44,017 nucleotides of DNA from Flavobacteriales bacterium. GTDB lineage: Bacteria; Bacteroidota; Bacteroidia; Flavobacteriales; JBLHRE01. The stretch's first letter is position 1; every line of letters starts with the position of its first letter. Both the position numbers and the translations under genes were made by a program. The DNA lies in assembly GCA_047625765.1 (NCBI GenBank), contig JBLHRE010000001.1, positions 1-44,017 on the forward strand. The letters are read 5' to 3'. Positions 18,328-32,526 of the stretch are shown here, piece by piece. Below the pieces are notes generated by a model. The model had not been told where the DNA came from. It was given only the letters and a program-made list of their open reading frames with translations, and ran no database searches.

Positions 18328-18368
18328 ATGCCATATAATTGAAGGTAAAAGCACAGCTAAGCTTTTTA

Positions 18369-18376
18369 TACTTTTG
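18369..18376 (+). promoter_or_regulatory. Bacteroidota-type -7 promoter box TACTTTTG (consensus TAnnTTTG)
   Basis: Exact match to TAnnTTTG, 25 nt upstream of the ATG at 18401. Confidence 0.5.
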
Positions 18377-18400
18377 CAAACTATTATTAAAACAAAGAAG

Positions 18401-18850
18401 ATGTCTTTAGAATTAGAAGTTAACGAGCAGATTAAAGTAGCCATGCGTGCAAAAGAACGCGATGTATTGGAGTCTTTAAGGGCGATAAAGAATGCTATTT
18501 TGGTTGCGAAATCGGATGTAGGGGCTACTGGTGAAATGACAGAAGCTGACGAGATTAAGTTAGTACAGCGCTTGCAAAAGCAACGTAAAGAAGCAGCGGC
18601 AATTTATACAGAACAGGGTCGCGAAGACTTGGCAGAGGTAGAATTACAGCAGGCAGCCGTTATTGCACGTTTCTTGCCGCAGCAAATGAGCGAAGCAGAA
18701 TTAACGGAAGCTTTAAAAGAGATTGTTGCCAAGGTAGGAGCAACAGGCCCACAGGATTTAGGTAAGGTAATGGGAATGGCTTCAAAGGCATTGGCAGGTA
18801 AAGCCGAGGGGAAAATGATAGCGTCTACTGTAAAATCTTTGTTGCAGTAA
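18401..18850 (+). CDS. GatB/YqeY domain-containing protein
   Basis: MSLELEVNEQIKVAMRAKERDVLESLRAIKNAI...LPQQMSEAEL...GKVMG is typical of the YqeY family (~149 aa). The start is taken at the ATG at 18401, downstream of the promoter box. Confidence 0.85.
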   Translation: MSLELEVNEQIKVAMRAKERDVLESLRAIKNAILVAKSDVGATGEMTEADEIKLVQRLQKQRKEAAAIYTEQGREDLAEVELQQAAVIARFLPQQMSEAELTEALKEIVAKVGATGPQDLGKVMGMASKALAGKAEGKMIASTVKSLLQ

Positions 18851-19072
18851 TCCCTTAATCTCCAGATTAAAACGTTAATAAAACTAGCAATTATGTTGAC
18901 AACGAAAGAAACATAGAAATCTTTTTAATCAACTGTTAGTAAGTATGTTAAAAATTACTATTTTTGCCGTCCGATTTTTGTTCAAAGGACATTTGCTTAC
19001 TAGAGCAAAGCTGAAACAGAGTCTAGGTGGTGGGACATCTTGATACTCTTAAATTTAAGCGAATTTTAGTTG

Positions 19073-19080
19073 TACATTTG
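19073..19080 (+). promoter_or_regulatory. candidate -7 promoter box TACATTTG for rplM-rpsI
   Basis: Exact TAnnTTTG match 46 nt upstream of the rplM GTG. A second match (TATTTTTG) lies at 18959-18966. Confidence 0.4.
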
Positions 19081-19125
19081 CGCCTCTTTTAAAGGCGTAT
19101 TATTAATTTTAAAAAACTTTAGAAA

Positions 19126-19581
19126 GTGGATACACTAAGCTATAAGACCGTATCGGTTAACAAGGCTACTGCTGAAAAAGAATGGGTGGTTGTAGATGCT
19201 GAAGGAGCGACTTTAGGTCGTTTGTCATCTATGGTTGCGAAGTTGATTCGTGGTAAATACAAGCCTAGCTTTACTCCTCATGTTGACTGTGGTGATAACG
19301 TAATTGTTATCAATGCAGATAAAATCAACTACGCTGGATTAAAATGGGAGAACAAAGAATACATTCGTCACACGGGATATCCAGGTGGTCAGCGTATCAC
19401 TACAGCTCGTGAGTTGTACGACAAAAACCCATGTATCTTGGTAGATAAGGCTGTAAAAGGAATGTTACCTAAAAATAAATTAGGTCGCGCATTGAATAAA
19501 AATTTGCACGTTTTTGTTGGGACTGAGCACCCTTTTACCGCTCAGAAACCAAAAACTATCAATCTAAATGAATTGAGATAA
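19126..19581 (+). CDS. rplM: 50S ribosomal protein L13
   Basis: GTG start. KEWVVVDAEGATLGRLSS and the ...HTGYPGG... motifs are typical of uL13. Confidence 0.97.
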   Translation: MDTLSYKTVSVNKATAEKEWVVVDAEGATLGRLSSMVAKLIRGKYKPSFTPHVDCGDNVIVINADKINYAGLKWENKEYIRHTGYPGGQRITTARELYDKNPCILVDKAVKGMLPKNKLGRALNKNLHVFVGTEHPFTAQKPKTINLNELR

Positions 19582-19582
19582 G

Positions 19583-19969
19583 ATGGCTGTTACTCATACT
19601 ATAGGAAGGCGTAAAAAGGCAATCGCACGTGTTTACCTGAAAGACGGTAAAGGTACGATCCTTGTGAACGGAAAAGATTATAAGAATTATTTCCCAACAG
19701 GTACGTTACAGTACAAAATAGAGCAATCATTTGCTCTAACTGAAAATACAGGAAAATTTGATGTTAATGTTAATGTGATCGGTGGTGGTGTTACTGGTCA
19801 GGCTGAGGCAATTCGTCTTGGAATCTCTCGTGCTTTGTGCGTGTTAGATCCTGAGCACAGAATTGTACTTAAACCTGAAGGTTTACTTACTCGTGATCCG
19901 AGAATGGTGGAACGTAAAAAATTCGGTCAGAAGAAAGCCCGTAAGAAATTCCAGTTCTCTAAACGTTAA
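19583..19969 (+). CDS. rpsI: 30S ribosomal protein S9
   Basis: GRRKKAIARVYL..., GGGVTGQAEAIRLGISRAL and a C-terminal ...KKARKKFQFSKR are typical of uS9. Confidence 0.97.
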   Translation: MAVTHTIGRRKKAIARVYLKDGKGTILVNGKDYKNYFPTGTLQYKIEQSFALTENTGKFDVNVNVIGGGVTGQAEAIRLGISRALCVLDPEHRIVLKPEGLLTRDPRMVERKKFGQKKARKKFQFSKR

Positions 19970-19986
19970 TACTGGTTTAGAATCTA

Positions 19987-20034
19987 AACTGCCAAGACTG
20001 CTTCAGGATCTCCTTGAGTCGCTACTTGGCAGTT
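19987..20034 (+). terminator. stem-loop after rpsI (10-bp outer stem with an inner hairpin); possible terminator/attenuator or rpsB leader structure
   Basis: AACTGCCAAG (19987-19996) pairs perfectly with CTTGGCAGTT (20025-20034). An inner helix TCAGG/CCTGA-type forms within TCAGGATCTCCTTGA (one G-U pair). The element is followed by a T-rich TGTTATTATT. Confidence 0.4.
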
Positions 20035-20075
20035 GTTATTATTAAAAGAAGGTAAACAAGATTAAGAAAATCAAA

Positions 20076-21062
20076 ATGGCGAAAATTAACACGCAAGATT
20101 TATTGAAAGCAGGTGTTCACTTTGGACACCTTACGCGTAAGTGGAATCCAGCAATGGCTCCTTACATCTTTATGGAACGTAATGGTATCCATATTATTGA
20201 CTTGAACAAAACTGTTGCAAAAATCGAAGAGGTTTCTGAAGCATTGCAATCTATTGCTCGTTCTGGTCGTAAGGTTCTTTTTGTTGCTACTAAGAAACAA
20301 GCTAAAGAAGGTGTTGCAGCTGCTGCAGCAGAAATTAATATGCCTTACATCACTGAGCGCTGGCCTGGTGGAATGTTAACAAACTTTGTTACCATTCGTA
20401 AAGCAATTAAGAAGATGTCTATTATCGACAAGATGAAGGTTGATGGTACTTTCTTGACTTTGTCTAAAAGAGAGCGTTTACAAGTAGATCGTCAAAGAGC
20501 TAAATTGGAATTGAACTTAGGTTCTATTGCTGATATGACTCGTTTGCCAGGTGCATTGTTTATCGTTGATATCAAGCGTGAACACATCGCTGTTGCTGAA
20601 GCTCAGAAGTTGGGTATCCCAACTTTCGCTATCGTTGATACAAACTCAAACCCTAACGAAGTTGATTTTGCAATTCCTGCAAATGATGATGCTTCTAGAT
20701 CTGTTGAAAAAGTGGTGTCTTTCATCATTGATGCAATGAAAGAAGGTTTGAGCGAACGTGCAAACGAAAAAGCAATCGCTAAGAAAGCTGAAGAAAAAGT
20801 AGCTGAAGAGAAAGAAGCTGCTAAAGCTGCCGCTGCTGCTGCAAAAGCTGCTCCTGCTCCAGCAAAAGAAGAGACTCCTGCTAAGGAAGAAGCTCCTGCT
20901 GCTGCAAAAGTTGTTCCTGCTCCAGTAAAAGAAGAGACTCCTACTAAGGAAGAAACTCCTGTTGCTGCAAAAGAAGAAACTCCTGTTGCTGCAAAAGAAG
21001 AGGCTCCTGCAAAGGAAGAGGCTAAAGAAGAAATAAAGGCGGAGGAAAAATCTGCTGAATAA
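20076..21062 (+). CDS. rpsB: 30S ribosomal protein S2 with a ~100-aa Ala/Glu/Lys/Pro-rich C-terminal extension
   Basis: The uS2 core (LLKAGVHFGH, ERWPGGMLTN, FIVD...E...A..E.KLGIP) is followed from about nt 20761 by low-complexity KEE[TA]P[AV]AAK repeats. Confidence 0.95.
   Translation: MAKINTQDLLKAGVHFGHLTRKWNPAMAPYIFMERNGIHIIDLNKTVAKIEEVSEALQSIARSGRKVLFVATKKQAKEGVAAAAAEINMPYITERWPGGMLTNFVTIRKAIKKMSIIDKMKVDGTFLTLSKRERLQVDRQRAKLELNLGSIADMTRLPGALFIVDIKREHIAVAEAQKLGIPTFAIVDTNSNPNEVDFAIPANDDASRSVEKVVSFIIDAMKEGLSERANEKAIAKKAEEKVAEEKEAAKAAAAAAKAAPAPAKEETPAKEEAPAAAKVVPAPVKEETPTKEETPVAAKEETPVAAKEEAPAKEEAKEEIKAEEKSAE
20949..20996 (+). repeat. perfect 24-bp in-frame tandem duplication (GAAGAAACTCCTGTTGCTGCAAAA x2) inside the rpsB tail
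   Basis: Units 20949-20972 and 20973-20996 are identical. Degenerate copies flank them on both sides. Confidence 0.9.
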
Positions 21063-21087
21063 TTATCCATTATAAAACTGTAAAGTG

Positions 21088-21912
21088 ATGACTAAAGTTA
21101 CAGCTGCTGAAGTAAGTAAGCTTAGAAAGCAAACTGGTGCCGGAATGATGGATTGCAAGAAGGCCTTGGTTGAAACAAATGGAGATTTTGAAGCTGCAGT
21201 AGATTTTCTACGCAAATCAGGTCAAAAAGTTGCTGCAAAACGTGCCGACAGGGACGCTAGCGAAGGTGTTGTATTATCTAAAGCTAGCGCTGATGGTAAA
21301 ATAGGAATTCTTTTATGTTTGAACTGCGAAACTGATTTCGTAGCGAAAAACGATGATTTTGTGAAATTAGCAACAGACTTATTAGAAGTAGCATTAAACG
21401 AAAAGCCTGCTAATACAGAAGCTTTCAAAGCTTTGGCTTTTGAAGGTATGACAGTTGGTGAGAAATTAATCGAAAAAACTGGTGTTATCGGTGAAAAGAT
21501 TGAAATCTCTGCTTACGAAATGGTAGAATCTGAATTCGTTGCTTCTTATATACACGCGGGTAACAGATTGGCTACTTTGGTTGGTATGACTAAAGAAGCT
21601 GCTGAAGCAGGTAAGGATGTTGCAATGCAAGTTGCGGCAATGAACCCACTAGGTTTAGATAAAGGTGATGTTGCTGATGATGTAGTTGCTCGTGAAAGGG
21701 AGTTGGCTATGGATATGGCACGTGAAGAAGGTAAGCCTGAGCAAATGATTGAGCAAATTGCTATGGGTCGTGTTAACAAATTCTACAAAGAGAACACTTT
21801 ATTAAACCAAGCGTTTATTAAAGATAGTAAGAAATCTGTTTCTCAATATTTGAAAGATGTTGACGGTGATCTTACAGTTACTACATTCAAAAGAGTTGGT
21901 TTAGGAGTTTAA
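21088..21912 (+). CDS. tsf: translation elongation factor Ts
   Basis: The UBA-like N-terminus ...VSKLRKQTGAGMMDCKKAL and the rest of the protein are typical of EF-Ts. The ATG at 21088 is preferred over the adjacent GTG at 21085. Confidence 0.95.
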   Translation: MTKVTAAEVSKLRKQTGAGMMDCKKALVETNGDFEAAVDFLRKSGQKVAAKRADRDASEGVVLSKASADGKIGILLCLNCETDFVAKNDDFVKLATDLLEVALNEKPANTEAFKALAFEGMTVGEKLIEKTGVIGEKIEISAYEMVESEFVASYIHAGNRLATLVGMTKEAAEAGKDVAMQVAAMNPLGLDKGDVADDVVARERELAMDMAREEGKPEQMIEQIAMGRVNKFYKENTLLNQAFIKDSKKSVSQYLKDVDGDLTVTTFKRVGLGV

Positions 21913-21977
21913 TATTCCTTTCAATTATATAAAAATCCGAATCATTACTGATTCGGATTTTTTTTGCTGAAAACTTT
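21895..21977 (+). repeat. left copy of the 83-bp perfect direct repeat (last 5 tsf codons + stop + terminator)
   Basis: Base-for-base identical to 28536-28618 (offset 6641 bp). Verified by aligning the two stretches by eye. Confidence 0.95.
21931..21965 (+). terminator. intrinsic terminator of rpsB-tsf
   Basis: A 13-bp stem AAAAATCCGAATC/GATTCGGATTTTT with loop ATTACT and an 8-T run. Confidence 0.85.
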
Positions 21978-22102
21978 GGGTATGAAATTTCGTAGTTTTT
22001 ATAATATACAATTACCTTATGTATTTGGCTGGTTTTAAGAGTGATAGATTTATGGTGAATTTTATTACCTTGTGTGTTTGTTAACCATAACTCATATAAC
22101 CC

Positions 22103-25100
22103 ATGAAAAAACATGCAATGCTTGGTCTTTTGTGTCTAAGCTTAAACCTACACTCTATTGCACAAGTTGTGAATGATATTGATATGACTGTATCCGAAAT
22201 ATTTGATGCAAATATTTCGATTTTGGATTCTCTGGAGGAATCTGGTGATACAAATAGGTATCAATGGTTTGGAAAAAGATGGCAGCGGTGGCAACATCAA
22301 AACACGGATATGTTAGGAGACCTTTCTAAAACTCCTAGGGAACATCTTGCAATGAGAAATAAAAATAATGGAATTTCGACAACAATAGATATTGGCCTGA
22401 CTGAGGGATTTTCTCGATCAACACCAAATTTGTGTCCCGATGTTTGGGATGAAATTGGAGCATTTGGCCCCCCACTTATTTATGCCCAGAACAACGAGCC
22501 AGTTCCAATGGGAGGAAGAGGGAATGGTAGAATAGATTTTGTGAAATATGATGCTACAAATAATCTACTATTTGCCTGCTCTCCCGGCGGAGGATTGTTC
22601 TATAGAAACATGAATGATGTGCATTGGAAGACAACCGGTTTTGATAAAATAAAAACTACTGGGGCTTCATATTTAGTGACTTCCCCTTTCAATTCGGATA
22701 TTTGGTTTGTGGCGACAGGAGGTTCAGATAGAAGAGATAAATACAAGCCATCGGATGGAGTATATAGGACCCTTGATGGAGGGGCTACTTGGGAATCTAT
22801 GTATTTGGTGGTAAATCAACCATCAAAGCCATTAAGAACAAATTACCAATGGTCAGGAACCATATTATATATTCAAAAAATATTAATGCACCCTTCAAAT
22901 CAAGATATTTTGTATGCGGCAACTACTTGGGGAATTTACAAAACTGTAAACGCTACAGAGTCCATACCTGAATGGAATCTAGTTTTAAGGAATGAAGGTA
23001 TTGATTCAAAACATGAGAGATTTTATGATATTGAATTTAAACCAGGAGATCCATCTGTGATTATGGCTTCTGGGGATTATGCTTGGATTTCGAATGACGA
23101 TGGGGAAGTTGGCTCTTGGTTCACAATTGGAGATATACAGAGTATCGTTGATGCTATACCTTGTGGAGAGCATAAAATTGGATTGGCTGTTACTCCTGCA
23201 AACCCCAATCGACTAATAATGATGGCTGCTCAACGTGACCCACAAGATGTTACTCTTTGTTCTGAAAAAGCTAAATTTTATACTTTTAATACAGTCACTA
23301 ATAAATGGGATTATTTAGGAGAACGTTCTAGTGTGGATACTTTTGTGCATACTTTAACCATTTCACAAGTTGATGAAACAAAAATGTTATTTGGAACCAT
23401 GGGAGGTTCAAATATTCATGTTTGGACAATAAACTATGGAGACCTTTCTAAACAAATTAAATCGTCAAATGTGGGTCATTTAGATACTCGGTTTATTGTT
23501 TCAGACTTAACTAACGGAGATGAGGATTTTTATGTTGGTAATGATGGCGGATTGCTAAAGTTTGAAAATATTGATAGTCCGAGTAACTATCAAGATTTAA
23601 CTGAGGATTTGGCTGCTGTAACGGCTTATGTTGTTGGAGATTCTGAATTTGACAAAAATGCCATCCTATATGGCGCTCAAGATAATCATGGTAACCTAAA
23701 AATTACGGGAACAGACTGGATGGTTGGATCTTTTGGAGATGGTAACGGTGCTTTGGGTGATAAGCATGACCCTGACTTGTTTTACCTAACAAATTACCCT
23801 AATTCAAACAATCAGTTAATGAAAATAACTCACGATGGAAGTGGAGGTTTTACTAGAGAAAATATTTATCCAGGCCAGTCAAGTCCTTTATACGATAAAT
23901 TTGCCTTTTCCATAGAGCAAAATAATTTCAAAGACCACCTTTATTATGCAGCAAATGGACTAGGTAGAAAAACTAGCGAATTTAATAATGGCAACTGGCA
24001 GGTGATATACGATGATGAATCTTGGGGGTTTGGGAGTCCTGCTCCTTCTCCTGTGAATAAAGATATTTTGTTTGTGGTTTTATGGAAAAAAATCCCAAAT
24101 AGCGGAGCTATTTTTAGAGTGATGAAGTCTAAAAACATTACTGCTGAGAACCCAGATTTTGAAGAAGTAGATTTGTCAGCATTTAACACAAATAACGAGT
24201 TAACATGGATAGCTATTGAGGCTGACGATATTAATGAAAATGGGTTTTGGTTGGCTAATCCAGGTTATTTTAATAAGCCAAAAGTTGCGTATTACGATGG
24301 AATTATTCTTCATGATATATCAGGGAATTTGCCGGATGATGTAAGTGTAAAAAAAGTGGTGAAACAACCTGGGCCGAGTAATATTATATATGTAGCGACT
24401 ACCCAAGGAGTGTTTAAATCTAGGAACAATACAGGGATTTGGGAAGAAATGTGTGGCATTCCTTATGCTATGGTTAATGATTTGGAAATTAATCAATGTG
24501 CTCAGAAATTAAGAGCGGCTACTTTTGGTAGAGGTATATGGGAAGCTGATTTAGAGTCAGAAGATATATTAGAAGTGAATATAGGTGCTGATGTGTATAT
24601 ACCAACAGACCCTCCACGTGAGATTAATGTTAAAGCGGGTTCTGTAGCTATAGTAACGGGGCAAGTAAATATGCCCATTGGTGGTAAAATTGTTATTGAA
24701 AGGGGAGGTAAACTAATAATTAATGGAGGAACTATTACATGTAATTGTGGATTTTGGGAAGGGATTCAGGTAGAAGGGGATAAATCACAGCCTTCTTATC
24801 ATCCAACGCAGGGAGAGGTGCAAGTAATTAATGGAGGAACTATTAAACATGCGAAAATTGCTATTTCAACCTCCAAAAAGACCAATGATATTATCCAATG
24901 GGATTATACTGGAGGTGTAATAAAAGCGGATAATGCCAATTTCATTGATAATTGGAGAGATATTGAAATGCTTACATACCATGATTCAAATAGACCTTAT
25001 TTGAATAGGACAAACTTTAAGAATACCACTTTCAAACGAACAAATCATTATGAATTGCTCTATAAAGATGTTTCTCACTTTGTACATTTAGAAAATGTGG

Positions 25101-26794
25101 CAGGGATTGAATTCAGTAATTGTCATTTTATTGGCAAAGAGTCTGATCTCCCTAATGATAGCGAAATCGGAATTTATAGTAATGGGTCCCATTTTAATGT
25201 TTCGGGTATTTGTGACCAATATGATGCTACTAATGCGATTGCAAGTTGTGTTGAATGGGAAAGGAGTAGTTTTGAAAATATCACCACAGGAATTATGGCA
25301 ACAAATATTGCTCCAACCTCCTTTGTTCCAAGTATTGCGTATGCTAATTTTATTAATTGCTACGAAGGGATTAGATTAGAAGGATTGATAAACGCTAGCG
25401 TGCATGATAATCAGTTTGTATTGCATGCACCAAGAAAAGGTTGGGAAAAACCATATGGAGTTTATTTAAGAGGTTGCACGGGTTATGGAGTTTATGATAA
25501 TACTTTTGAAGGGAATAACTTTACCGATTTTGGTGTTATCGTGAATAATTCTGCTCCTGACCCAAACCTCATTAACCGAAACGATTTCAATGGTTTGGCA
25601 CTCGGAATGTTGATTGAAGGTGAAAATAGGGATCCAAGTACCGGGGCTGGTTTAATAAACCAATGCAATAATTTCTCCCTTAGAAGGTATAATAAAACCC
25701 TTGATGAACAAGGTGTTAATAATGGCTATGACATCGCTTTGGTACCAGTGGGTAGCGCCAATCCATCTGTTGCTAATTATTGGGGAGATAGAGATGCTGA
25801 GAGTTATCCGGAATTGGCAAACAACTATTTTTCAGATAACTGCTTTACAGCAGATGATACCCATATTACGTCTGTTAATCTTCAACATAAATTGAAATAT
25901 GTGGTTAGTTTTGATCAGAACAATACCCCGTACCTGCCTGTTTGCTATAATGCAAGTTCTTTAGATATTGATCCTAAGTCTATTACTAGGTCTACCGGTT
26001 TCAACTATGATGTAGATTGTGCCAATTTTTATGATAATGTAACGACATCCACCTTGCGAGAGGTACAACAAACTTATAAGGATTTATTAGCACGTGCCCC
26101 AGGGGAGAATAAATTAAATAAAAGCGAAGCTATTGTCAACGAATTGGCAATAATAAAGAAAGCATACAAACTTCAATTAGATCATTACTTGAGGCAGAAA
26201 TTACACCCTAGGGATAATGAGTTTATTGATGATCAAAACATAAAATCAACACTCTTAGAGTTTGGAAGAGACTTTGAATCTTACCGATGGGTAATTTTAG
26301 CGAATAGCATGGATGATGTAGCTATTACCGATTCTTCCATCTTGCCCTTTATCGACTTATATAAAGGTGCTATCCAAAATGGATATTGGAATACAAGCAG
26401 CTTATCCAGTTATTGTGGTGATGTGTCAAGTTTTTATACGCCATTTGCAGAGGCAATTAGCAATAATCATTTTGATGAAGTGATACAATATCCTGCTATC
26501 AATTCAAAAGGCCGTATGTCTAGGGAAGAGCCCAATACTCAAGGAAAAGTATTGGAGGTTGCGCCTAATCCTAGTTTGGGTTTATTCAACTTAAATTTCA
26601 ATCGGGATCTGTTAAAAAAAGGGGTGTTGGTAGTCTATGATATGCAGGGTAGGGCTCTAATTGATTATACCTTAAGGGATGAAGTTTCAGCATTAAACTT
26701 AAATTTAGAAGGGTATCCAAAGGGCATTTATATGTTAAAACTCATCGGAAATGATCATGAAATTATTGAGCTACATAAATTATTACTACAGTAA
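22103..26794 (+). CDS. 1563-aa secreted multidomain protein of unknown function: signal peptide, Asp-box/BNR-type beta-propeller-like region, beta-helix-like region, T9SS type-A C-terminal sorting domain
   Basis: Signal peptide MKKHAMLGLLCLSLNLHSIAQ. Asp-box TLDGGATW (nt 22769-22792). The propeller-like region runs to ...FGRGIWEADLE (about aa 815). This is followed by repetitive G-x-I/V-x-I-xxGG-x-L-x-INGGTI strands. The C-terminal ~80 aa (nt 26546-26791: VAPNPSLGLFNLNF...KGIYMLKLIG...) look like a Por_Secre_tail sorting domain. Confidence 0.85.
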   Translation: MKKHAMLGLLCLSLNLHSIAQVVNDIDMTVSEIFDANISILDSLEESGDTNRYQWFGKRWQRWQHQNTDMLGDLSKTPREHLAMRNKNNGISTTIDIGLTEGFSRSTPNLCPDVWDEIGAFGPPLIYAQNNEPVPMGGRGNGRIDFVKYDATNNLLFACSPGGGLFYRNMNDVHWKTTGFDKIKTTGASYLVTSPFNSDIWFVATGGSDRRDKYKPSDGVYRTLDGGATWESMYLVVNQPSKPLRTNYQWSGTILYIQKILMHPSNQDILYAATTWGIYKTVNATESIPEWNLVLRNEGIDSKHERFYDIEFKPGDPSVIMASGDYAWISNDDGEVGSWFTIGDIQSIVDAIPCGEHKIGLAVTPANPNRLIMMAAQRDPQDVTLCSEKAKFYTFNTVTNKWDYLGERSSVDTFVHTLTISQVDETKMLFGTMGGSNIHVWTINYGDLSKQIKSSNVGHLDTRFIVSDLTNGDEDFYVGNDGGLLKFENIDSPSNYQDLTEDLAAVTAYVVGDSEFDKNAILYGAQDNHGNLKITGTDWMVGSFGDGNGALGDKHDPDLFYLTNYPNSNNQLMKITHDGSGGFTRENIYPGQSSPLYDKFAFSIEQNNFKDHLYYAANGLGRKTSEFNNGNWQVIYDDESWGFGSPAPSPVNKDILFVVLWKKIPNSGAIFRVMKSKNITAENPDFEEVDLSAFNTNNELTWIAIEADDINENGFWLANPGYFNKPKVAYYDGIILHDISGNLPDDVSVKKVVKQPGPSNIIYVATTQGVFKSRNNTGIWEEMCGIPYAMVNDLEINQCAQKLRAATFGRGIWEADLESEDILEVNIGADVYIPTDPPREINVKAGSVAIVTGQVNMPIGGKIVIERGGKLIINGGTITCNCGFWEGIQVEGDKSQPSYHPTQGEVQVINGGTIKHAKIAISTSKKTNDIIQWDYTGGVIKADNANFIDNWRDIEMLTYHDSNRPYLNRTNFKNTTFKRTNHYELLYKDVSHFVHLENVAGIEFSNCHFIGKESDLPNDSEIGIYSNGSHFNVSGICDQYDATNAIASCVEWERSSFENITTGIMATNIAPTSFVPSIAYANFINCYEGIRLEGLINASVHDNQFVLHAPRKGWEKPYGVYLRGCTGYGVYDNTFEGNNFTDFGVIVNNSAPDPNLINRNDFNGLALGMLIEGENRDPSTGAGLINQCNNFSLRRYNKTLDEQGVNNGYDIALVPVGSANPSVANYWGDRDAESYPELANNYFSDNCFTADDTHITSVNLQHKLKYVVSFDQNNTPYLPVCYNASSLDIDPKSITRSTGFNYDVDCANFYDNVTTSTLREVQQTYKDLLARAPGENKLNKSEAIVNELAIIKKAYKLQLDHYLRQKLHPRDNEFIDDQNIKSTLLEFGRDFESYRWVILANSMDDVAITDSSILPFIDLYKGAIQNGYWNTSSLSSYCGDVSSFYTPFAEAISNNHFDEVIQYPAINSKGRMSREEPNTQGKVLEVAPNPSLGLFNLNFNRDLLKKGVLVVYDMQGRALIDYTLRDEVSALNLNLEGYPKGIYMLKLIGNDHEIIELHKLLLQ

Positions 26795-28529
26795 GCAATT
26801 ATTATTGCTAGTATTGGCTTTGGGCATTGGAATTTCCAGTATGGCCCAAAGCCCTTTTACCTATAGATATACCAAGCATCAAAAGGAAGAGGGTTATTCC
26901 TTTCAGTTGCTGGAAGATAAAATTACTGTTATATGTGGTTATGGATGGCCTTCTTCTCCGATATTTTCCTATCCATCTTCGTTTACCATTGATTATGAAA
27001 AAAAACTATTAAATGAGGATACCCTTGATTTTATGGATATTTTTTATGTGTTGCCGGTAGATGAATCCTTTCTTTTGAATAGGGGTAAAATAGGCCATTC
27101 TTTAGATGGAGTTTTATTGAATAGTGATACTTCCGGATACTACCCTAATGATGCTATTGCTGTAGTTGATAGTCTCGGTAAATTTGACAGTATTATTTCC
27201 CTTGCATGGCTTTGGCACTCGGATAGTTTGTATACAAAAGGGGTGCAAAGATATACCGACTCTAGTTTAATAACTTTGGTAAAAAAGGATAATTATTCAA
27301 TTTCTTATTTTATAGAACTCGATTTTGAGGGCAATGAAATACGTAGGTGTTTTTTGGAGCGAGATGCTATTTATGCATTTAGACCCATGGCCAATGGAGA
27401 TTTGGTGCTTTGGTGGTTCGAAAATGGAAATAGTCATATACAGTTGATTAATACAGATTGTGAAATACGCTGGACCAGAGAATTGCACAATAGCATCGTC
27501 TGCTTAGGAGGGGTAGAAGGAAACTCTGTGGAGAATATTACTGAAGATTCGGAAGGGAATATTTATTTGGTAAGAACGGTGGATAGTCTTAATATCCCTG
27601 GAAATAGACAGCCAAAGTCAGTTATTCTTAAATTAGATCGAACGGACGGAAGCTGTATCTGGGAAAGAGGGATATCCCCCGCACATAATGGTGCCTTAAC
27701 CATAGGGGTTGAGTATGTCGAAAAGGATCATTCGGTTTTGTTTGCCAATACCTATGATTATATATACAATCCCCCATTAGAAATACCTTTAGGATTGGGT
27801 AAATTGGATGCTTCTACAGGTGATATTATATGGTTTAGAAAGGTAGATGTTCCTGAACTGAAATCCATTGGCTATGAAGCAACCCCTAGAGAACTTAAAA
27901 CGCATGGAGAAAACATTGTAACGCTTGCTACTATTGTCTATGAGACAAGAGATTCGCTGGGGAACATCGAGAAAATACATCGAGACCCCATGTTGTTCTA
28001 TCTGAATTGCGATGGTTTCGATAGTCTTCCCAGAGCAAATTTTACTGGAAGTAGCGAATCAAACCAAAATGTAATATTTTCTAATACAAGCACACATGCC
28101 TCAGAATTTTATTGGGATTTTGGAGATGGCACAACTAGTACAGATACTTTCCCTAGCCATACGTATGCTGCCGAAGGTTTTTATAACGTTCGGTTAATTG
28201 TCACATCCTGTGAGTATGCCGATACCATAAGTAAACAGATATATGCTACTAAAGTAAGCGTACAAGAATTTAATATTACGGATAAAGTATTGGTTTCTCC
28301 AAATCCAACGAGAGCGTATATTAATGTAGCGATAAACGAATTTAAAATAGGTGCAAATTGTAATTTAATGTTGTACAACAACTTAGGGGCTTTGGTTTTT
28401 TCTACAATGATACGTCAAGAGTTTTCAAGGCATTCTCTTTCAGATTTGCCTGATGGCATATATCATTTGCAAGTGCAACAAAATGGGAAATTATTGCATC
28501 ATCAAAAAATGATGCTGATGAAACCCTAA
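26751..28529 (+). CDS. 592-aa secreted protein of unknown function with a PKD domain and a T9SS type-A C-terminal sorting domain
   Basis: Signal peptide ...KQLLLLVLALGIGISSMAQ. PKD-like segment with the WDFGDGT motif (about nt 28035-28250). C-terminal LVSPNPTRAYINVAI...DGIYHLQVQQNGK... sorting domain. The start (ATG at 26751 or 26757) lies inside the preceding gene. Confidence 0.8.
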   Translation: MIMKLLSYINYYYSKQLLLLVLALGIGISSMAQSPFTYRYTKHQKEEGYSFQLLEDKITVICGYGWPSSPIFSYPSSFTIDYEKKLLNEDTLDFMDIFYVLPVDESFLLNRGKIGHSLDGVLLNSDTSGYYPNDAIAVVDSLGKFDSIISLAWLWHSDSLYTKGVQRYTDSSLITLVKKDNYSISYFIELDFEGNEIRRCFLERDAIYAFRPMANGDLVLWWFENGNSHIQLINTDCEIRWTRELHNSIVCLGGVEGNSVENITEDSEGNIYLVRTVDSLNIPGNRQPKSVILKLDRTDGSCIWERGISPAHNGALTIGVEYVEKDHSVLFANTYDYIYNPPLEIPLGLGKLDASTGDIIWFRKVDVPELKSIGYEATPRELKTHGENIVTLATIVYETRDSLGNIEKIHRDPMLFYLNCDGFDSLPRANFTGSSESNQNVIFSNTSTHASEFYWDFGDGTTSTDTFPSHTYAAEGFYNVRLIVTSCEYADTISKQIYATKVSVQEFNITDKVLVSPNPTRAYINVAINEFKIGANCNLMLYNNLGALVFSTMIRQEFSRHSLSDLPDGIYHLQVQQNGKLLHHQKMMLMKP

Positions 28530-28535
28530 ACCTGT

Positions 28536-28618
28536 GTTGGTTTAGGAGTTTAATATTCCTTTCAATTATATAAAAATCCGAATCATTACTGATTCGGATT
28601 TTTTTTGCTGAAAACTTT
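28536..28618 (+). repeat. right copy of the 83-bp perfect direct repeat (duplicated tsf 3' end + terminator)
   Basis: Identical to 21895-21977. It begins 7 nt after the stop of the 592-aa ORF. Confidence 0.95.
28572..28606 (+). terminator. duplicated copy of the tsf terminator, now terminating the islet genes
   Basis: Same hairpin and T-run as 21931-21965. Confidence 0.8.
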
Positions 28619-28680
28619 CGTTCAGCTTTAAACAACAATTGGTATTTTCGCAACAGATAAATCCAATAGCAAGAGATAGC

Positions 28681-29388
28681 ATGCATTACAAAAGAATATT
28701 ATTGAAGTTGAGTGGTGAAGCGCTAATGGGCGAAAAACAGTATGGAATTAATCCCGAACGGTTGAAATCATATGCCAATGAAGTCAAACAAGCAGTTGCT
28801 TCTGGTTGCGAGGTTGCAATTGTAATTGGAGGTGGAAATATCTTTAGAGGGTTACAGGCAGCGGAAAGTGGAATGGACCGTGTTCAAGGGGATCACATGG
28901 GTATGCTAGCAACAGTTATCAATGGTTTGGCACTACAGTCGGCATTGGAACAGTTGGATGTAAGTACACGTGTTTTATCTGCCATTAAAATGGATCAGGT
29001 GGCTGAACCTTTTATTAGAAGAAGAGCCATTCGCCATTTAGAAAAAGGACGTGTCATTATTTTTGTAGCAGGAACGGGTAACCCTTATTTTACGACAGAT
29101 ACTGGAGCTGCCTTAAGAGCTATAGAAATTGAAGCAGACGTTATTTTAAAAGGAACGCGTGTAGATGGTATTTACACGGCAGATCCCGAAAAAGATCCTA
29201 CTGCGACTAAATTCGATAACATCACTTTTAGCGAGGTATACGAAAAGGGATTAAACGTAATGGACATGACTGCTTTTACACTTTGTAACGAAAACAACTT
29301 GCCCATTATCGTCTTTGATATCAACAAACATGGAAACCTGAAACAGTTGGTAGAGGGGATATCTGTTGGAACCTTGGTAAATGCTTAG
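28681..29388 (+). CDS. pyrH: UMP kinase
   Basis: [23 protein letters not shown] and [10 protein letters not shown] motifs. The start is taken at the ATG at 28681, because the ORF start at 28639 adds 14 non-conserved residues. Confidence 0.95.
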
Positions 29389-29430
29389 GCATTTGAGATA
29401 AAATTATATTTTTACGCAAAACTATACATC

Positions 29431-29994
29431 ATGAACGAAGAAGTAAGCTTTATTCTGGATAGTGCTAAAGAGCAGATGCAAAAAGCGCTAAAACATTTGG
29501 AAACAGAAATGCTAAAGATCCGTGCAGGGAAGGCAAACCCTGTAATGTTACAAGGGATAATGGTAGATTATTATGGATCTATGACTGCTCTTGCACAAGT
29601 TGCAAATGTTGGAACGCCAGATGCTAGAACACTTACTGTTCAGCCATGGGAGAAAGCAATGATCGAACCGATTGAAAAAGCGATTTTGAACTCCAACCTT
29701 GGATTTAATCCAATGAACAATGGAGATCAGATTATGATTAATATACCGCCACTTACCGAAGAGCGAAGAGGTGGTTTGGCAAAACAAGCAAAAGCAGAAT
29801 GCGAACATTGTAAAGTGAGTGTTCGAAATGCTAGAAAAGATGCCAATGATGAAATCAAGAAATTAGGTAAAGATGGCTTGTCTGAAGATCTTGCAAAAGA
29901 TGCTGAAGCACAAATACAGAAAATAACAGATGCTCATATCTCTAAAACAGATGAGTTATTTGATTCGAAAGAAAAGGATATTATGACCATTTAA
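29431..29994 (+). CDS. frr: ribosome recycling factor
   Basis: 187 aa, with ...LKIRAGKANPVMLQGIMVDYYGS...PLTEERR... typical of RRF. Follows pyrH. Confidence 0.95.
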   Translation: MNEEVSFILDSAKEQMQKALKHLETEMLKIRAGKANPVMLQGIMVDYYGSMTALAQVANVGTPDARTLTVQPWEKAMIEPIEKAILNSNLGFNPMNNGDQIMINIPPLTEERRGGLAKQAKAECEHCKVSVRNARKDANDEIKKLGKDGLSEDLAKDAEAQIQKITDAHISKTDELFDSKEKDIMTI

Positions 29995-30012
29995 TGGTTT
30001 CTAATATACGTG

Positions 30013-30044
30013 CAAAGGCTACCTTTTGGTGGCCTTTGTTGTTT
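30013..30044 (+). terminator. probable intrinsic terminator after frr
   Basis: CAAAGGCTACC / GGTGGCCTTTG stem (one G-U pair) with a TTTT loop, followed by TTGTTT. Confidence 0.55.
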
Positions 30045-30111
30045 AGAATGGCTAGGCAACTTGTAACACTAAATACGTGTCTTTTCTTTGTGCACCCAAA
30101 CAGGATTTTAA

Positions 30112-32526
30112 ATGAAACACATATTATCTCTTTTTGCCTTTGTAGCGGTATCCTTTTATGCGAATAGCCAATACTTGGTTAAAGGAGTAATTTCTGATGC
30201 GAAAACATCAGAAGCTTTGGCTTTTGTAAATATCGTAGTAGAAGGAGCAGCGTTTGGTACAACAACGGATCTAGACGGTCGATTCCGTTTCGAATTACCA
30301 AAGTTTCCAAAAGGAATTTTGTTTAGCTATATAGGTTACAAACCTGCCATATTGGATTCGGTTCAATTGACATCTCAATCACTGGATGATTTAAAAATTC
30401 GACTATCGATAGACAATGAAGTGCTGCAGCAAGTAGATTTGATTGCCAAAGAAAATCCTGCCCATAGAATTATTAGAGCTGCAGTTGCCAATAGAGAACT
30501 ACACAAGCCAGAGAATTATCCTTCGTTTCGTTACAATTCTTACAACAAGTTTGTGCTTACAATGAATCCCGATTCATTGACCTTACCAGATACGCTAATG
30601 ACTCCGATTGATTCTACTAGGGCAGAAATGGTAGATTTTTTACAAACTAAGCATATCTTTTTGATGGAATCGGTGAGCGAGCGCAAGCGAAAATCAGATA
30701 AGGAGGACAGCGAAAAGGTTTTAGCGACAAGAATTTCAGGATTCGAAAACCCTGCCTTTGCGATGTTGGCTACAGAGTTTCAATCTCTGTCGTTTTACAA
30801 CGATTATATTTCTGTTTTATCTCAGCAGTATCTCTCACCTTTAAGCATAGGGAGCACAAAAAAATATTTTTTCCGGTTAAAGGATACCTTGTATCGTGAA
30901 GCAGATTCAATTTTTGTAATTCAGTTTGAACCTCGTAGAGGGACTAATTTTGCGGGTGTAAAAGGGGCCCTTTACGTTTCTACCGATGGATTTGCAGTAA
31001 CCAATGTGTTGGCAGAACCGGCCAAAAAGGAGGGTATTGGAGTAAGTGTTCAGCAACAATACAAGAAAACAAATACAGGGTATTGGTTTCCGCATCAGCT
31101 CAATGCCGATTTTGTTTTCCCAAATGCCCGCATCAATGGATTTCCTCCCGTAGGTATTAGTAGAAGCTATCTGAAAAATATCGAAGTTGGTATTGATTTC
31201 GAGAAAAAAGAAATTGCCAAAGTCGATTTGATAATTGATGATAAGGCTGCTAAACAATCAGACTCCTTTTGGAATCAATACAGAGAAGATACTTTATCGG
31301 CTAAAGAAAAAGGGACCTATGTATTTATCGATAGCCTGAGTAAAGCGGAGAGCCTTGAAAAGAAATTAAAGCTTTATCAAGCTGTTTTAAGCGGTGTTTG
31401 GCCTGTTGGCCCTGTAGAGTTGGATTTGGATAGGTTAATTTATTACAACGAATATGAGGGCTTAAGGTTGGGGCTTGGAATGCATACCAGCGATAAATTA
31501 TCGGAACATGTAAAAATTGGCGGCTACACCGCTTATGGGTTAAAGGATAAAGAATGGAAGTATGGGGCAGATATAGATTTTACGATAAATAAAATCTGGA
31601 ATTGGCACTTTGGCTATGCTTTTATGAATGATGTTAAGGAATCGGGGAAAATCACATATCTTTCAAAGAAGGCATTGTTTGGTTTGACGGACATCCGAAG
31701 CATTTATGTTTCTGGGAATCGCGACAGAATTAAGCGACACAGCTTGTACAACAGTATTTACCTTTTGCCAACATTGCATTTCAAGCAGAGTTTTCAGGTA
31801 GAGGAATATACCCGAATAGAAGATTATCTATATCTGGCGGGCGATTGGCAGATGGAGCAAGACCCAAACACTTTCAATTTCACCAATATTAGAGCCGAAT
31901 TTGAATTCAAACCAAACGAAAGGGTAATCCAGACAAGTCAGGGGAGGATGTCTTTAAATAAGTCCTTTCCTATTTATAATTTGAATATAGAACAAGGGAT
32001 AAATGGCTTGTTCAATTCTCAATTCGATTATACAGCAGTTCATTTTAAAGTGCATTACCAATGGGGGATTAGAAATGCGGGTAAATTAGAAGCTAGAATA
32101 TCTTTAGGGAAAGTGTTTGGAGAGGTGCCATATTCTAAATTAGTAACAGGATATGGAAACTCGGTAGACAAATTTGCAGTTTCTAGCCCATTTAGTTTTG
32201 AAACTATGGGGCTGGCAGAATTTGCGAGTTCGGAATATGCATACTTGAATTTAGCACATGACTTTGGGACATTATTGATCAATAAAAAGTACTTCCATCC
32301 AAGTATTCGAATTGTACACAACATGGCAATTGGTTCTTTTGCGAATAGTAATGAGCATCAAATTGAAAGAAAAAACTTAGAAAAAGGATACCTGGAAAGT
32401 GGGATAGAATTCAATAAAATCCTATCCACAATAGGCCTTGGCGTGTATTATCGATATGGGCCAAATGCTCTGGAAGATGCCAAGGAAAACATAGCCGTAA
32501 AAATGACGGTAAGCCTTCCTTTTTAA
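30112..32526 (+). CDS. CarboxypepD_reg-like domain protein, DUF5686-type putative outer-membrane protein
   Basis: Signal peptide. N-terminal YLVKGVISDAKTSEALAFVNIVVEG...TTDLDGRFRF (carboxypeptidase-regulatory-like fold). The ~700-aa remainder is aromatic-rich with alternating beta-strand character and ends in ...VSLPF. The family assignment is from memory and not searched. Confidence 0.65.
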   Translation: MKHILSLFAFVAVSFYANSQYLVKGVISDAKTSEALAFVNIVVEGAAFGTTTDLDGRFRFELPKFPKGILFSYIGYKPAILDSVQLTSQSLDDLKIRLSIDNEVLQQVDLIAKENPAHRIIRAAVANRELHKPENYPSFRYNSYNKFVLTMNPDSLTLPDTLMTPIDSTRAEMVDFLQTKHIFLMESVSERKRKSDKEDSEKVLATRISGFENPAFAMLATEFQSLSFYNDYISVLSQQYLSPLSIGSTKKYFFRLKDTLYREADSIFVIQFEPRRGTNFAGVKGALYVSTDGFAVTNVLAEPAKKEGIGVSVQQQYKKTNTGYWFPHQLNADFVFPNARINGFPPVGISRSYLKNIEVGIDFEKKEIAKVDLIIDDKAAKQSDSFWNQYREDTLSAKEKGTYVFIDSLSKAESLEKKLKLYQAVLSGVWPVGPVELDLDRLIYYNEYEGLRLGLGMHTSDKLSEHVKIGGYTAYGLKDKEWKYGADIDFTINKIWNWHFGYAFMNDVKESGKITYLSKKALFGLTDIRSIYVSGNRDRIKRHSLYNSIYLLPTLHFKQSFQVEEYTRIEDYLYLAGDWQMEQDPNTFNFTNIRAEFEFKPNERVIQTSQGRMSLNKSFPIYNLNIEQGINGLFNSQFDYTAVHFKVHYQWGIRNAGKLEARISLGKVFGEVPYSKLVTGYGNSVDKFAVSSPFSFETMGLAEFASSEYAYLNLAHDFGTLLINKKYFHPSIRIVHNMAIGSFANSNEHQIERKNLEKGYLESGIEFNKILSTIGLGVYYRYGPNALEDAKENIAVKMTVSLPF

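What the first reader, a model, noticed from the sequence alone, without database searches (positions are those of the whole stretch)
21895..28618. 6.6-kb two-gene T9SS-cargo islet between tsf and pyrH, bracketed by perfect 83-bp direct repeats of the tsf 3' end and terminator
Seen directly: 21895-21977 and 28536-28618 are identical over 83 bp, offset by 6641 bp. The repeat starts codon-aligned inside tsf (VGLGV + stop) and includes the whole tsf terminator hairpin and T-run. Between the copies lie only two genes, both encoding large secreted proteins with T9SS sorting domains. Established: rpsB-tsf-pyrH-frr is a widely conserved housekeeping arrangement (for example in E. coli and B. subtilis). 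Inference: the islet was inserted, or is an indel, at the 3' end of tsf, with duplication of the target as in site-specific or homology-mediated integration. Recombination between the repeats would excise it precisely and restore tsf-terminator-pyrH. No integrase or transposase is present, so the mobilising mechanism is unexplained. Perfect identity of a mostly non-coding repeat suggests a recent event or ongoing gene conversion.
Basis: partly seen in the sequence, partly recalled or inferred. Interest (0 to 1): 0.75.

Follow-up and report, generated by a model that had tools for sequence, protein, structure and literature searches.

The report
Repeat-flanked secreted-protein islet beside tsf
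Two large secreted-protein genes (6.6 kb) sit between the housekeeping genes tsf and pyrH of an uncultured Flavobacteriales bacterium, bracketed by a perfect 83-bp duplication of the tsf tail and terminator, while close relatives carry the intact empty site; this is a clean but not unprecedented example of a strain-variable, probably excisable gene cassette with no recombinase of its own.

Summary
21895-21977 and 28536-28618 are identical over 83 bp. They are the only long repeat in the window. They hold the last five tsf codons, the stop codon, the intrinsic terminator and 15 further bases. Between them lie only a 125-bp leader and two genes for T9SS type-A cargo proteins. The 44-kb window is otherwise housekeeping and has no recombinase.

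The junctions were assembled independently from at least five samples, so this is not an artefact. The predicted empty site exists. It is complete in a close relative (97.9% nt identity in tsf) and in a sister species (about 90%). A co-occurring 99.65%-identical strain shows a junction contig that is probably also an empty site.

Both copies carry this lineage's own variants at sites that differ in those relatives. The duplication was therefore made from host sequence recently, or has been homogenised since.

The cargo genes are orphans, although gene 2 has a distant paralogue in the same genome. How the duplication arose is unresolved.

The closest published analogue is the Salmonella wzy locus, which has 113-bp perfect repeats, excises precisely and has no known recombinase. 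I file this as a new member of a known kind, of moderate interest.

The parts
21088..21912 (+). tsf (elongation factor Ts). Its last 15 coding nt and stop codon lie inside repeat copy 1.
   Evidence: Pfam EF_TS E=1.6e-62. The exact product is on record in 8 contigs.
21895..21977 (+). Direct repeat copy 1 (attL-like): tsf tail VGLGV plus stop, spacer, terminator, and GCTGAAAACTTT.
   Evidence: 100% identical to 28536-28618.
21931..21962 (+). tsf intrinsic terminator hairpin (14-bp arms, TTAC loop), followed by the T-run.
   Evidence: Inverted repeat I1. RNA fold -25.6 kcal/mol, z = -4.1.
21978..22102 (+). Islet leader: 125 AT-rich non-coding bases upstream of gene 1. A promoter here is presumed (inferred, not shown).
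   Evidence: Sequence. Not similar to the pyrH leader. No exact TAnnTTTG motif.
22103..26794 (+). Islet gene 1: 1563-aa orphan secreted protein. The N-terminal half is distantly similar to Sortilin/VPS10-BNR propeller proteins. It ends in a T9SS type-A sorting domain.
   Evidence: PF18962 31.7 bits and TIGR04183 33.1 bits, both above cut-off. The best homologue is 29% identical over 38% of the protein.
26751..28529 (+). Islet gene 2: 592-aa secreted protein with an unknown all-beta N-terminal region, one PKD domain and a T9SS type-A sorting domain.
   Evidence: PKD_4 E=1.2e-12, PF18962 and TIGR04183 above cut-off. Homologues are 40% identical (P0242) and 34% identical (P0243, from the same MAG).
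28525..28546 (+). 8-bp inverted repeat CCTAAACC / GGTTTAGG with a 6-nt spacer, straddling the right junction. Its significance is uncertain.
   Evidence: Found. Only 1.15% of random window positions are spanned by such a repeat.
28536..28618 (+). Direct repeat copy 2 (attR-like). It starts 6 nt after the gene 2 stop codon and supplies the only terminator for the islet genes.
28572..28603 (+). Second copy of the terminator hairpin.
   Evidence: inverted repeat I1.
28619..28680 (+). pyrH leader, contiguous with the terminator in empty-site relatives. It holds the conserved block TTGGTAnTTTCGCA (28640-28653).
   Evidence: Alignment with L099, L003 and L112.
28681..29388 (+). pyrH (UMP kinase).
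   Evidence: Pfam AA_kinase E=1.9e-37. The 235-aa product is on record.
29431..29994 (+). frr (ribosome recycling factor).
   Evidence: Pfam RRF E=1.1e-65.

Best explanation
This is a recent, strain-variable insertion of a two-gene T9SS-cargo cassette. It landed in the only neutral spot between tsf and pyrH, after the tsf terminator and before the pyrH promoter region. It is bracketed by an 83-bp duplication of the host's own tsf tail and terminator.

Shown:
- The ancestral state is tsf, one terminator, pyrH.
- The islet is present in some members of the lineage and absent in very close ones.
- The duplication has sharp ends and consists of this lineage's own sequence variant.
- The cassette brings a leader but no terminator. 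Copy 1 keeps tsf intact and terminated. Copy 2 terminates the islet genes and shields pyrH-frr.
- No recombinase lies in the islet or within 21 kb upstream or 15 kb downstream of it.

Inferred:
- The two identical 83-bp repeats act as att-like substrates for general recombination, RecA-dependent or by sister-strand slippage. The islet can therefore be deleted precisely, leaving one copy.
- It could be regained by a single crossover of a circular copy, or by ordinary homologous recombination in tsf and pyrH after DNA transfer.
- This would give on/off population-level variation of two exported or cell-surface proteins. The Salmonella wzy locus, with its 113-bp perfect repeats, was shown experimentally to behave this way.

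Unresolved: the founding event that made the duplication. My ranking is (1) a single crossover of a circular molecule that already carried host-derived 83 bp, (2) illegitimate or template-switch insertion that duplicated the target, and (3) a trans-acting site-specific recombinase.
For: - The repeat is perfect and unique.
- Both junctions were assembled independently in five samples.
- Empty sites with exactly one copy and exactly the predicted joint occur in L112 (97.9% nt) and L099 (about 90% nt).
- L003 is an empty-type junction contig from the same sample as the filled contig L012. It is also the most divergent of the near-identical contigs, at 99.65%.
- tsf is directly followed by pyrH in most Bacteroidota loci examined.
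- The single copies in L112 and L099 differ from the window's 83-mer at about 5 and 8 positions. The window's two copies differ at none.
- The contigs that carry the islet differ less from the window inside the islet than in its flanks. For L002 the counts are 1 SNP in 6.6 kb against 14 in 10.1 kb (Fisher p = 0.007; p = 0.10 if one SNP cluster is dropped).
- There is no recombinase in the window, no terminal inverted repeats and no homology beyond the 83 bp.
- Logan contig L097 equals the islet interior plus 30 nt of repeat at each end, so in that sample the islet ends join only to the repeat.
- Precedent: the wzy locus has 113-bp perfect repeats, precise excision, a circular product and reversion, with no recombinase identified. 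The same paper quotes minimal efficient processing segments for RecA-dependent recombination of 23-27 bp and 44-90 bp, so 83 bp is sufficient (PMC12074656).
Against: - No read-level data were available, so excision, circular forms and allele frequencies are not shown.
- L003 extends only 23 nt past the repeat. It could rest on few or chimeric reads, and its strain-specific SNPs lie more than 2.2 kb from the junction.
- The empty alleles may all be ancestral rather than products of excision.
- Nothing explains how 83 bp of host sequence came to be duplicated in the first place.
- The islet's tetranucleotide signature is an outlier (0.248 against a maximum of 0.213 for other windows). That could mean foreign origin, or only the unusual amino-acid make-up of secreted proteins.
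Confidence: 0.6

Rival explanations
1. The islet is a decayed integrative element of the CIME type. A tyrosine or serine recombinase element that targets the 3' end of tsf integrated here, carrying its own copy of the tsf tail and terminator. [quoted passage not shown] The remaining cargo, with attL and attR, is excised and moved only when a related element supplies the recombinase in trans.
For: - The repeat begins codon-aligned inside the target gene and restores its 3' end. This is the classical layout of att sites at gene 3' ends, as in e14 with icd/icdC (PMC13626634) and in the CIME definition (PMC5704250).
- An 8-bp inverted repeat with a 6-nt spacer sits at the islet-end/repeat boundary, the geometry of a recombinase core site.
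Against: - There is no recombinase gene or remnant. Two intact ORFs fill 6427 of the 6558 interior bases, leaving a 125-bp leader and a 6-nt tail, so the P arm of any attP would lie inside a coding region.
- Both copies are identical, including non-coding variants specific to this lineage. An element-borne copy is normally distinguishable, as icd and icdC are.
- The putative 6-nt overlap (TGTGTT) differs from the attB equivalent (AGAGTT).
- None of about 90 Bacteroidota tsf loci shows a duplicated tsf tail. No recombinase was found in other tsf-pyrH inserts. The sequence has no viral contig match.
Confidence: 0.17
2. The islet is an old resident that is being lost. It was already present in the common ancestor of this species group. 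The repeats are kept identical by gene conversion. Relatives such as L112 and L099 lost it independently by recombination between the repeats.
For: - GC (36.4%) and GC3 (0.28-0.32) of the islet genes lie within the host range.
- Gene 2 belongs to a lineage-native family, with a 34%-identical paralogue in the same MAG.
- Repeat-mediated deletion leaves an empty site that cannot be told apart from an ancestral one.
Against: - It needs at least two or three independent precise losses.
- It also needs sustained gene conversion across 6.6 kb at an 83-bp stretch that otherwise changes fast (5-8 differences among close relatives).
- SNP density inside the islet is lower than in the flanks.
- No homologue of gene 1 above 29% identity was found among 5.8 billion clustered proteins, including the sister species' samples.
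Confidence: 0.13
3. The structure is an assembly artefact, or the islet is a free circular element. The chromosome would really be tsf, repeat, pyrH. The 6.6-kb segment plus one repeat copy would be a separate circle, or would lie elsewhere, and would have been threaded into the chromosome by the assembler.
For: - A de Bruijn graph with k below 83 is identical for the integrated form and for an empty site plus a circle.
- Logan contigs break at the repeat.
- L003 shows an empty-type joint.
Against: - Contigs cross the left junction (L001, L002, L004, L098) and the right junction (L001, L002, L009, L012) in five independently assembled samples. No contig shows the circle joint.
- A circle carrying only two exported-protein genes has no replication function.
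Confidence: 0.03

Closest known systems
Reversibly excised wzy locus of Salmonella Typhimurium DT8/DT30 (PMC12074656)
   Same: - A short chromosomal cassette sits between two housekeeping genes (nucA and thrS there, tsf and pyrH here).
[quoted passage not shown]
- Deletion alleles keep exactly one copy.
- No recombinase has been identified.
- The cargo acts at the cell surface.
- Presence or absence varies among very close strains.
   Different: - For wzy, excision, the circular product, dependence on attL and reversion by co-culture were all shown experimentally. None of this could be tested here.
- This case lies in a different phylum.
- The cargo is two T9SS-exported proteins of unknown function, not an O-antigen polymerase.
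- Here the repeat is demonstrably the tail and terminator of the upstream gene.
CIME (cis-mobilizable element): a decayed ICE or IME that keeps attL and attR (PMC5704250)
   Same: [quoted passage not shown] It has no integration or transfer genes of its own.
   Different: - There is no trace of a former integration or conjugation module.
- No related integrase-bearing element was found at tsf.
- The two repeats are identical down to host-lineage-specific non-coding variants.
Prophage e14 (and phage 21) in the 3' end of icd in E. coli (PMC13626634)
   Same: The inserted DNA duplicates the 3' end of a housekeeping protein gene, so the gene stays intact. Excision recombines the two copies.
   Different: - e14 encodes its own site-specific recombination system.
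- Its icd tail differs from the host's icdC copy.
- Here there is no recombinase and the copies are identical.
Minimal mobile elements of Neisseria (definition quoted in PMC3082526)
   Same: It is a slot between two conserved genes that holds different whole-gene cassettes in different strains, with no mobility genes. Here the tsf-pyrH slot also holds a 23S_rRNA_IVP gene in L100 and a 212-aa ORF in L101, and is empty in L099, L102, L103 and L112.
   Different: Minimal mobile elements are defined by exchange through flanking homologous recombination and have no flanking direct repeats. Here the alternative cassettes occur in different species, not in strains of one species.
Cargo remnants with partial tRNA repeats in tycheposon-shaped islands of Prochlorococcus (bioRxiv 10.1101/2020.12.28.424599)
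   Same: Strain-variable cargo is flanked by duplicated ends of the target gene, sometimes without an integrase.
   Different: Tycheposons target tRNA genes and are defined by their own tyrosine recombinases. Nothing of the kind was found here.

Membership tests
Recombinase-less excisable locus flanked by long perfect direct repeats (Salmonella wzy type) | Two identical direct repeats of roughly 100 bp bound the locus. | tested here: met
   83/83 identical, at 21895-21977 and 28536-28618.
Recombinase-less excisable locus flanked by long perfect direct repeats (Salmonella wzy type) | Deletion or empty alleles keep exactly one repeat copy at the same boundaries. | tested here: met
   L112 and L099 are complete empty sites. 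L003 shows an empty-type joint within the same species.
Recombinase-less excisable locus flanked by long perfect direct repeats (Salmonella wzy type) | No recombinase is encoded in or next to the locus. | tested here: met
   Pfam scans of the window's ORFs and the Pfam families listed by the look-up of encoding contigs for the remaining genes show only housekeeping genes.
Recombinase-less excisable locus flanked by long perfect direct repeats (Salmonella wzy type) | Spontaneous precise excision gives a circular product and depends on the repeats. | not testable with these tools
   This needs reads, PCR or genetics. No contig carries the circle joint.
CIME (decayed integrative element) | [quoted passage not shown] | tested here: met
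   The repeat contains the last 5 codons and the stop codon of tsf.
CIME (decayed integrative element) | Descent from an ICE or IME, shown by remnants of integration or transfer genes or by related integrase-bearing elements at the same site. | tested here: not met
   - Two intact cargo ORFs fill the interior.
- No duplicated tsf tail occurs in about 90 tsf loci.
- No recombinase was found in other tsf-pyrH inserts.
- There was no viral contig hit.
CIME (decayed integrative element) | Excision or mobilisation by a cognate recombinase supplied in trans. | not testable with these tools
Transposon or insertion sequence | Terminal inverted repeats and a transposase. | tested here: not met
   The islet ends are no more complementary than shuffled sequence. 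There is no transposase domain.
Transposon or insertion sequence | A short target-site duplication (2-15 bp, from general knowledge). | tested here: not met
   The duplication is 83 bp.
Minimal mobile element | Different whole-gene cassettes between the same two conserved genes in different strains. | tested here: inconclusive
   Different cassettes do occur in the tsf-pyrH slot, but in related species with 84-86% Tsf identity (L100, L101), not in strains of this species.
T9SS type-A cargo proteins | A C-terminal sorting domain (TIGR04183 / PF18962) above the curated cut-off. | tested here: met
   Gene 1 scores 33.1 and 31.7 bits and gene 2 scores 29.9 and 31.0 bits, against cut-offs of 23 and 27.
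T9SS type-A cargo proteins | An N-terminal Sec signal peptide and a T9SS machinery in the genome. | tested here: inconclusive
   Hydrophobic N-termini ending in AQ were seen by eye, but no predictor was run. gldB and gldC are in the window.

The most novel reading that the evidence does not exclude
The 83-bp duplication would be a true target-site duplication, made by an unrecognised insertion mechanism. One candidate is a trans-acting enzyme that makes staggered cuts on either side of an intrinsic terminator. The left cut would fall at the base of the first small hairpin. The right cut would fall in the loop of the small palindrome GCTGAA-AACTTTCG-TTCAGC.

The enzyme would splice a promoter-plus-ORF cassette between the two filled-in copies. 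The same mechanism would underlie other recombinase-less loci with perfect repeats of about 100 bp, such as Salmonella wzy. That would define a new, cross-phylum class of cassette integration that automatically supplies the cargo with a terminator.
Probability: 0.07. Interest if true: 0.8.

Novelty: new member of a known kind. Interest (0 to 1): 0.4.

Why it matters
- The case shows, with base-pair resolution and matching empty sites, how an uncultured Flavobacteriales population gains or loses two exported or surface proteins inside a core ribosomal/translation gene block. Neither neighbour is disturbed.
- The cassette brings its own leader and borrows a duplicated terminator.
- Together with the Salmonella wzy locus, it suggests that recombinase-less cassettes flanked by perfect repeats of about 100 bp may be a general way to switch surface structures on and off in a population. 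The benefit could be escape from phages or grazers; that is an inference.
- Such cassettes are easy to miss in short-read assemblies, because contigs break at the repeat.
- How the founding duplication arises is unexplained in both cases.

Tried and rejected
- Two metagenome-contig scans found nothing: a 48-nt core of the repeat and the 33-nt pyrH flank. That collection does not hold these samples.
- A viral-contig scan with the terminator found nothing.
- The genome-contig scan with Tsf found no relative above 65% identity. Close relatives had to be reached through the protein database and exact-product look-ups.
- I searched for a duplicated tsf tail or terminator in about 90 Bacteroidota tsf loci. 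It occurs only in this lineage.
- I scanned the genes that lie between tsf and pyrH in Flagellimonas, Pedobacter and other taxa for recombinases. They are ordinary genes: sigma factor with anti-sigma-like protein and DUF4097 proteins, a NagA-like amidohydrolase, and a phosphoesterase.
- Homology does not extend beyond the 83 bp. The islet has no terminal inverted repeats.
- Rfam found no family in 18000-31000.
- Function of the cargo stayed unresolved. Pfam on separate segments gave nothing, even at E up to 1. There was no PDB sequence match. The AlphaFold models are too poor to use: gene 2 has mean pLDDT 56.8 and the C-terminal half of gene 1 has 35.1. No fold search was therefore run.
- The exact Bacteroidetes -7 motif TAnnTTTG is absent from both the islet leader and the pyrH leader, so no promoter position is claimed.
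- I considered homology-facilitated illegitimate recombination as the founding event (PMC5361080). It can duplicate the target only if the donor already carried the islet next to an identical 83-mer, so it only moves the problem back.
- A duplicative copy from another locus of the same genome is unlikely. In Logan contig L097 both islet ends continue only into the repeat.


Full report
**1. Observation**

The window holds exactly two copies of an 83-mer, at 21895-21977 and 28536-28618. They are identical and 6641 bp apart. A search allowing 3 mismatches finds only these two, and none of 100 shuffles gave any match. No other repeat in the 44 kb comes close in length.

Copy 1 begins codon-aligned in tsf, reading GTT GGT TTA GGA GTT TAA. 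tsf itself is 21088-21912 (EF_TS E=1.6e-62). The copy continues through an 18-nt spacer, a hairpin with 14-bp arms and a 4-nt loop, a T-run and GCTGAAAACTTT. As RNA this folds as a classical intrinsic terminator (-25.6 kcal/mol, z = -4.1).

The edges are sharp. The 150 nt to the left and to the right of the two copies are no more similar than shuffled sequence.

**2. Anatomy**

The order of parts is as follows:
- rplM, rpsI, rpsB and tsf;
- repeat copy 1;
- a 125-bp leader;
- a 1563-aa ORF;
- a 592-aa ORF, whose called start overlaps the first ORF by 44 nt;
- 6 nt;
- repeat copy 2;
- a 62-bp pyrH leader, then pyrH and frr.

Both islet proteins pass the curated thresholds for the T9SS type-A sorting domain in Pfam and in NCBIfam. 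Both have hydrophobic N-termini.

The rest of the window is housekeeping: gldB, gldC, a GTPase, a hydrolase, the mraZ-to-ftsZ cell-division and cell-wall cluster, yqeY, a DUF5686 protein, an MMPL transporter, a nucleotidyl transferase, a polyprenyl synthase, a DnaJ-domain protein, sucA, sucB and an amidohydrolase. There is no integrase or transposase and no tRNA gene. The islet has no terminal inverted repeats.

**3. It is real, not an assembly artefact**

The window matches a JGI metagenome contig that is also deposited at NCBI as a Flavobacteriales MAG. Near-identical contigs from four further samples cross the junctions:
- left junction: L002, L004 and L098, besides L001, which is part of the window's own contig;
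- right junction: L002, L009 and L012, besides L001.

Logan k=31 contigs stop exactly 30 nt into the repeat (L005, L007) or start 30 nt before its end (L010, L011). L097 is the 6558-bp interior plus 30 nt of repeat at each end. This is the behaviour expected of a genuine 83-bp repeat. It also shows that in that sample both islet ends continue only into the repeat.

**4. Empty sites**

The genome collection holds no relative above 65% Tsf identity. In most Bacteroidota loci retrieved, however, tsf is followed directly by pyrH-frr.

The protein database yielded a graded series of close relatives. Exact-product look-ups gave their contexts.

| Locus | Relatedness to the window | State of the tsf-pyrH site |
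|---|---|---|
| L112 | Tsf 99% aa, 97.9% nt over tsf | Runs from tsf through a single terminator copy into the pyrH start |
| L099 | about 90% nt, a sister species | Same empty arrangement |
| L003 | 99.65% nt, from a sample that also holds the filled contig L012 | Reads tsf, the 83-mer, then 23 nt of the pyrH flank |

In both complete empty sites the joint is exactly ...GCTGAAAACTTT|CGTTCAGC..., apart from the substitutions noted in section 5. This is the sequence expected if the 6641-bp unit is removed.

L003 is the most divergent of the near-identical contigs. I treat it as probable but not proven evidence for an empty allele within the species, for two reasons. The contig ends soon after the joint, and its distinguishing SNPs lie more than 2.2 kb upstream.

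**5. Age and source of the duplication**

The single copies in L112 and L099 differ from the window's 83-mer at about 5 and 8 positions, in the hairpin loop, the spacer and GCTGAAAACTTT. The window's two copies differ at none. Both copies therefore carry this lineage's own version of a fast-changing non-coding stretch.

A foreign element bringing its own attP copy would be expected to leave distinguishable copies. That is the case for icd and icdC around prophage e14 (PMC13626634).

So there are two possibilities. Either the duplicated DNA is host-derived and younger than roughly 0.6 of the split from L112 (Poisson bound), or it has been homogenised.

Islet-carrying contigs also differ less from the window inside the islet than in the flanks. 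For L002 the counts are 1 SNP in 6.6 kb against 14 in 10.1 kb. The Fisher p-value is 0.007, weakening to 0.10 if one SNP cluster is dropped.

**6. Origin of the cargo**

Gene 1 is an orphan. Apart from itself, the best hit among 5.8 billion clustered proteins is 29% identical over 38% of its length. That hit, like the hits below it, is to Sortilin/VPS10-BNR propeller proteins with PKD and T9SS domains.

Gene 2 has a 40% homologue (P0242). It also has a 34% paralogue with the same MAG locus-tag prefix (P0243). The paralogue lies at an unrelated locus, next to a divergently oriented gene fragment that looks by eye like the N-terminus of a UvrD-like helicase.

GC (36.4%) and GC3 of the islet genes lie within the host range, but the tetranucleotide signature is the strongest outlier in the window. 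A foreign origin is therefore neither shown nor excluded.

Structure prediction and domain searches gave nothing usable on function.

**7. The slot is recurrently variable, but the repeat is unique**

Related species use the same slot differently:
- L100 (86% Tsf identity) holds a minus-strand 23S_rRNA_IVP gene flanked by its own imperfect repeats of about 100 bp.
- L101 (84% Tsf identity) holds a 212-aa ORF that is absent from L102 and L103. These two encode the identical Tsf, and no repeats flank the ORF.

More distant taxa have ordinary genes between tsf and pyrH. Across about 90 loci, a duplicated tsf tail occurs only in this lineage.

**8. Mechanism**

Shown:
- The cassette is an insertion relative to the ancestral tsf, terminator, pyrH order.
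- It is bounded by a perfect duplication of host sequence.
- It lacks any recombinase.

The layout is also transcriptionally tidy. Copy 1 leaves tsf complete and terminated. The cassette brings a leader but no terminator. Copy 2, only 6 nt after the gene 2 stop codon, terminates the cassette and leaves the pyrH leader intact.

Inferred: two identical 83-bp direct repeats exceed the minimal efficient processing segments quoted for RecA-dependent recombination (23-27 bp and 44-90 bp; PMC12074656). Precise deletion to a single copy should therefore occur. Re-acquisition is possible by a single crossover of a circular copy, or by flanking homologous recombination.

The Salmonella wzy locus is the closest documented case. 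Its features are:
- 2.56 kb between nucA and thrS;
- perfect 113-bp repeats;
- precise excision at about 1 in 500 cells;
- a circular product;
- reversion in co-culture;
- no recombinase identified.

**9. What remains unexplained**

The founding event is open. I considered three routes.

- *Site-specific integration followed by decay (CIME).* This fits the 'gene tail restored' layout and the 8-bp inverted repeat at the right junction. Only 1.15% of random positions carry such a repeat. It is weakened by the identical lineage-specific copies, by the lack of room or remnants for a recombination module, and by the absence of any related element.
- *Homology-facilitated illegitimate recombination.* This needs a donor that already had the structure.
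- *A transposase-like staggered cut.* This would imply an 83-bp target duplication, far beyond known enzymes (general knowledge).

I therefore commit to 'host-derived duplication, general recombination for loss and gain' at 0.6. The trans-recombinase rival stands at 0.17. An old resident kept uniform by gene conversion stands at 0.13. An artefact stands at 0.03.

**10. Verdict**

The feature is a new member of a known kind: a recombinase-less cassette flanked by long direct repeats, wzy-like and CIME-like. It is well documented at base-pair level in an uncultured lineage.

It is of moderate interest. It is a clean example of population-level gain and loss of exported proteins, and a second, phylogenetically remote case of a repeat structure whose origin is unexplained.

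Noticed in passing
window 20800-21060 (3' end of rpsB): RpsB carries an A/K/E/P-rich C-terminal extension built from degenerate 21-nt repeats. Its length varies among relatives: 328 aa here, 308 aa in L099, 289 aa in L100 and 251 aa in L101.
   Followed up: partly
L100 10376-10472 and 10869-10960: In a related species (Tsf 86%), a minus-strand 120-aa 23S_rRNA_IVP family gene sits between tsf and pyrH. It is flanked by imperfect direct repeats of about 100 bp (80-86% identity). This may be a small mobile cassette of a different kind.
   Followed up: partly
L101 1790-2600 compared with L102 1815-1885: There is a presence/absence polymorphism of a 212-aa ORF with no Pfam hit in the tsf-pyrH spacer, among contigs that encode the identical Tsf. 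It is a replacement-type indel that starts right after the terminator T-run, with no flanking repeats.
   Followed up: partly
window 28525-28546 and 28607-28626: An 8-bp inverted repeat (CCTAAACC, 6 nt, GGTTTAGG) straddles the right junction. The insertion point in the empty site lies in the loop of a small palindrome, GCTGAA-AACTTTCG-TTCAGC. Whether either matters for the insertion is unknown.
   Followed up: partly
window 25233-25276 (inside islet gene 1): Contig L098 ends at 25233. Contigs L009 (JGI) and L096 (Logan) both start at 25276. L098 and L009 are from one JGI sample, and L096 is presumably the same material assembled differently. Nothing in the sequence explains the break, which may be a coverage gap or a strain-variant site.
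   Followed up: partly
L113 382-2109 (same MAG, locus tag ACI8ZO_000582): This is a 575-aa paralogue of islet gene 2 (34% identity, PKD plus T9SS domain) at an unrelated locus. It lies next to a divergently oriented gene fragment that looks by eye like a UvrD-type helicase N-terminus. Another signal-peptide gene follows it, overlapping by 4 nt.
   Followed up: partly
window 28640-28653; also L099, L100, L101-L103: The block TTGGTAnTTTCGCA upstream of pyrH is conserved across species with 84-100% Tsf identity. It is probably the pyrH promoter's -7-like element, although it is not an exact TAnnTTTG.
   Followed up: no
window 14332-15054: A 240-aa ORF occupies the ftsQ position of the cell-division and cell-wall (dcw) cluster but has no Pfam match. 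It is conserved in L100.
   Followed up: no
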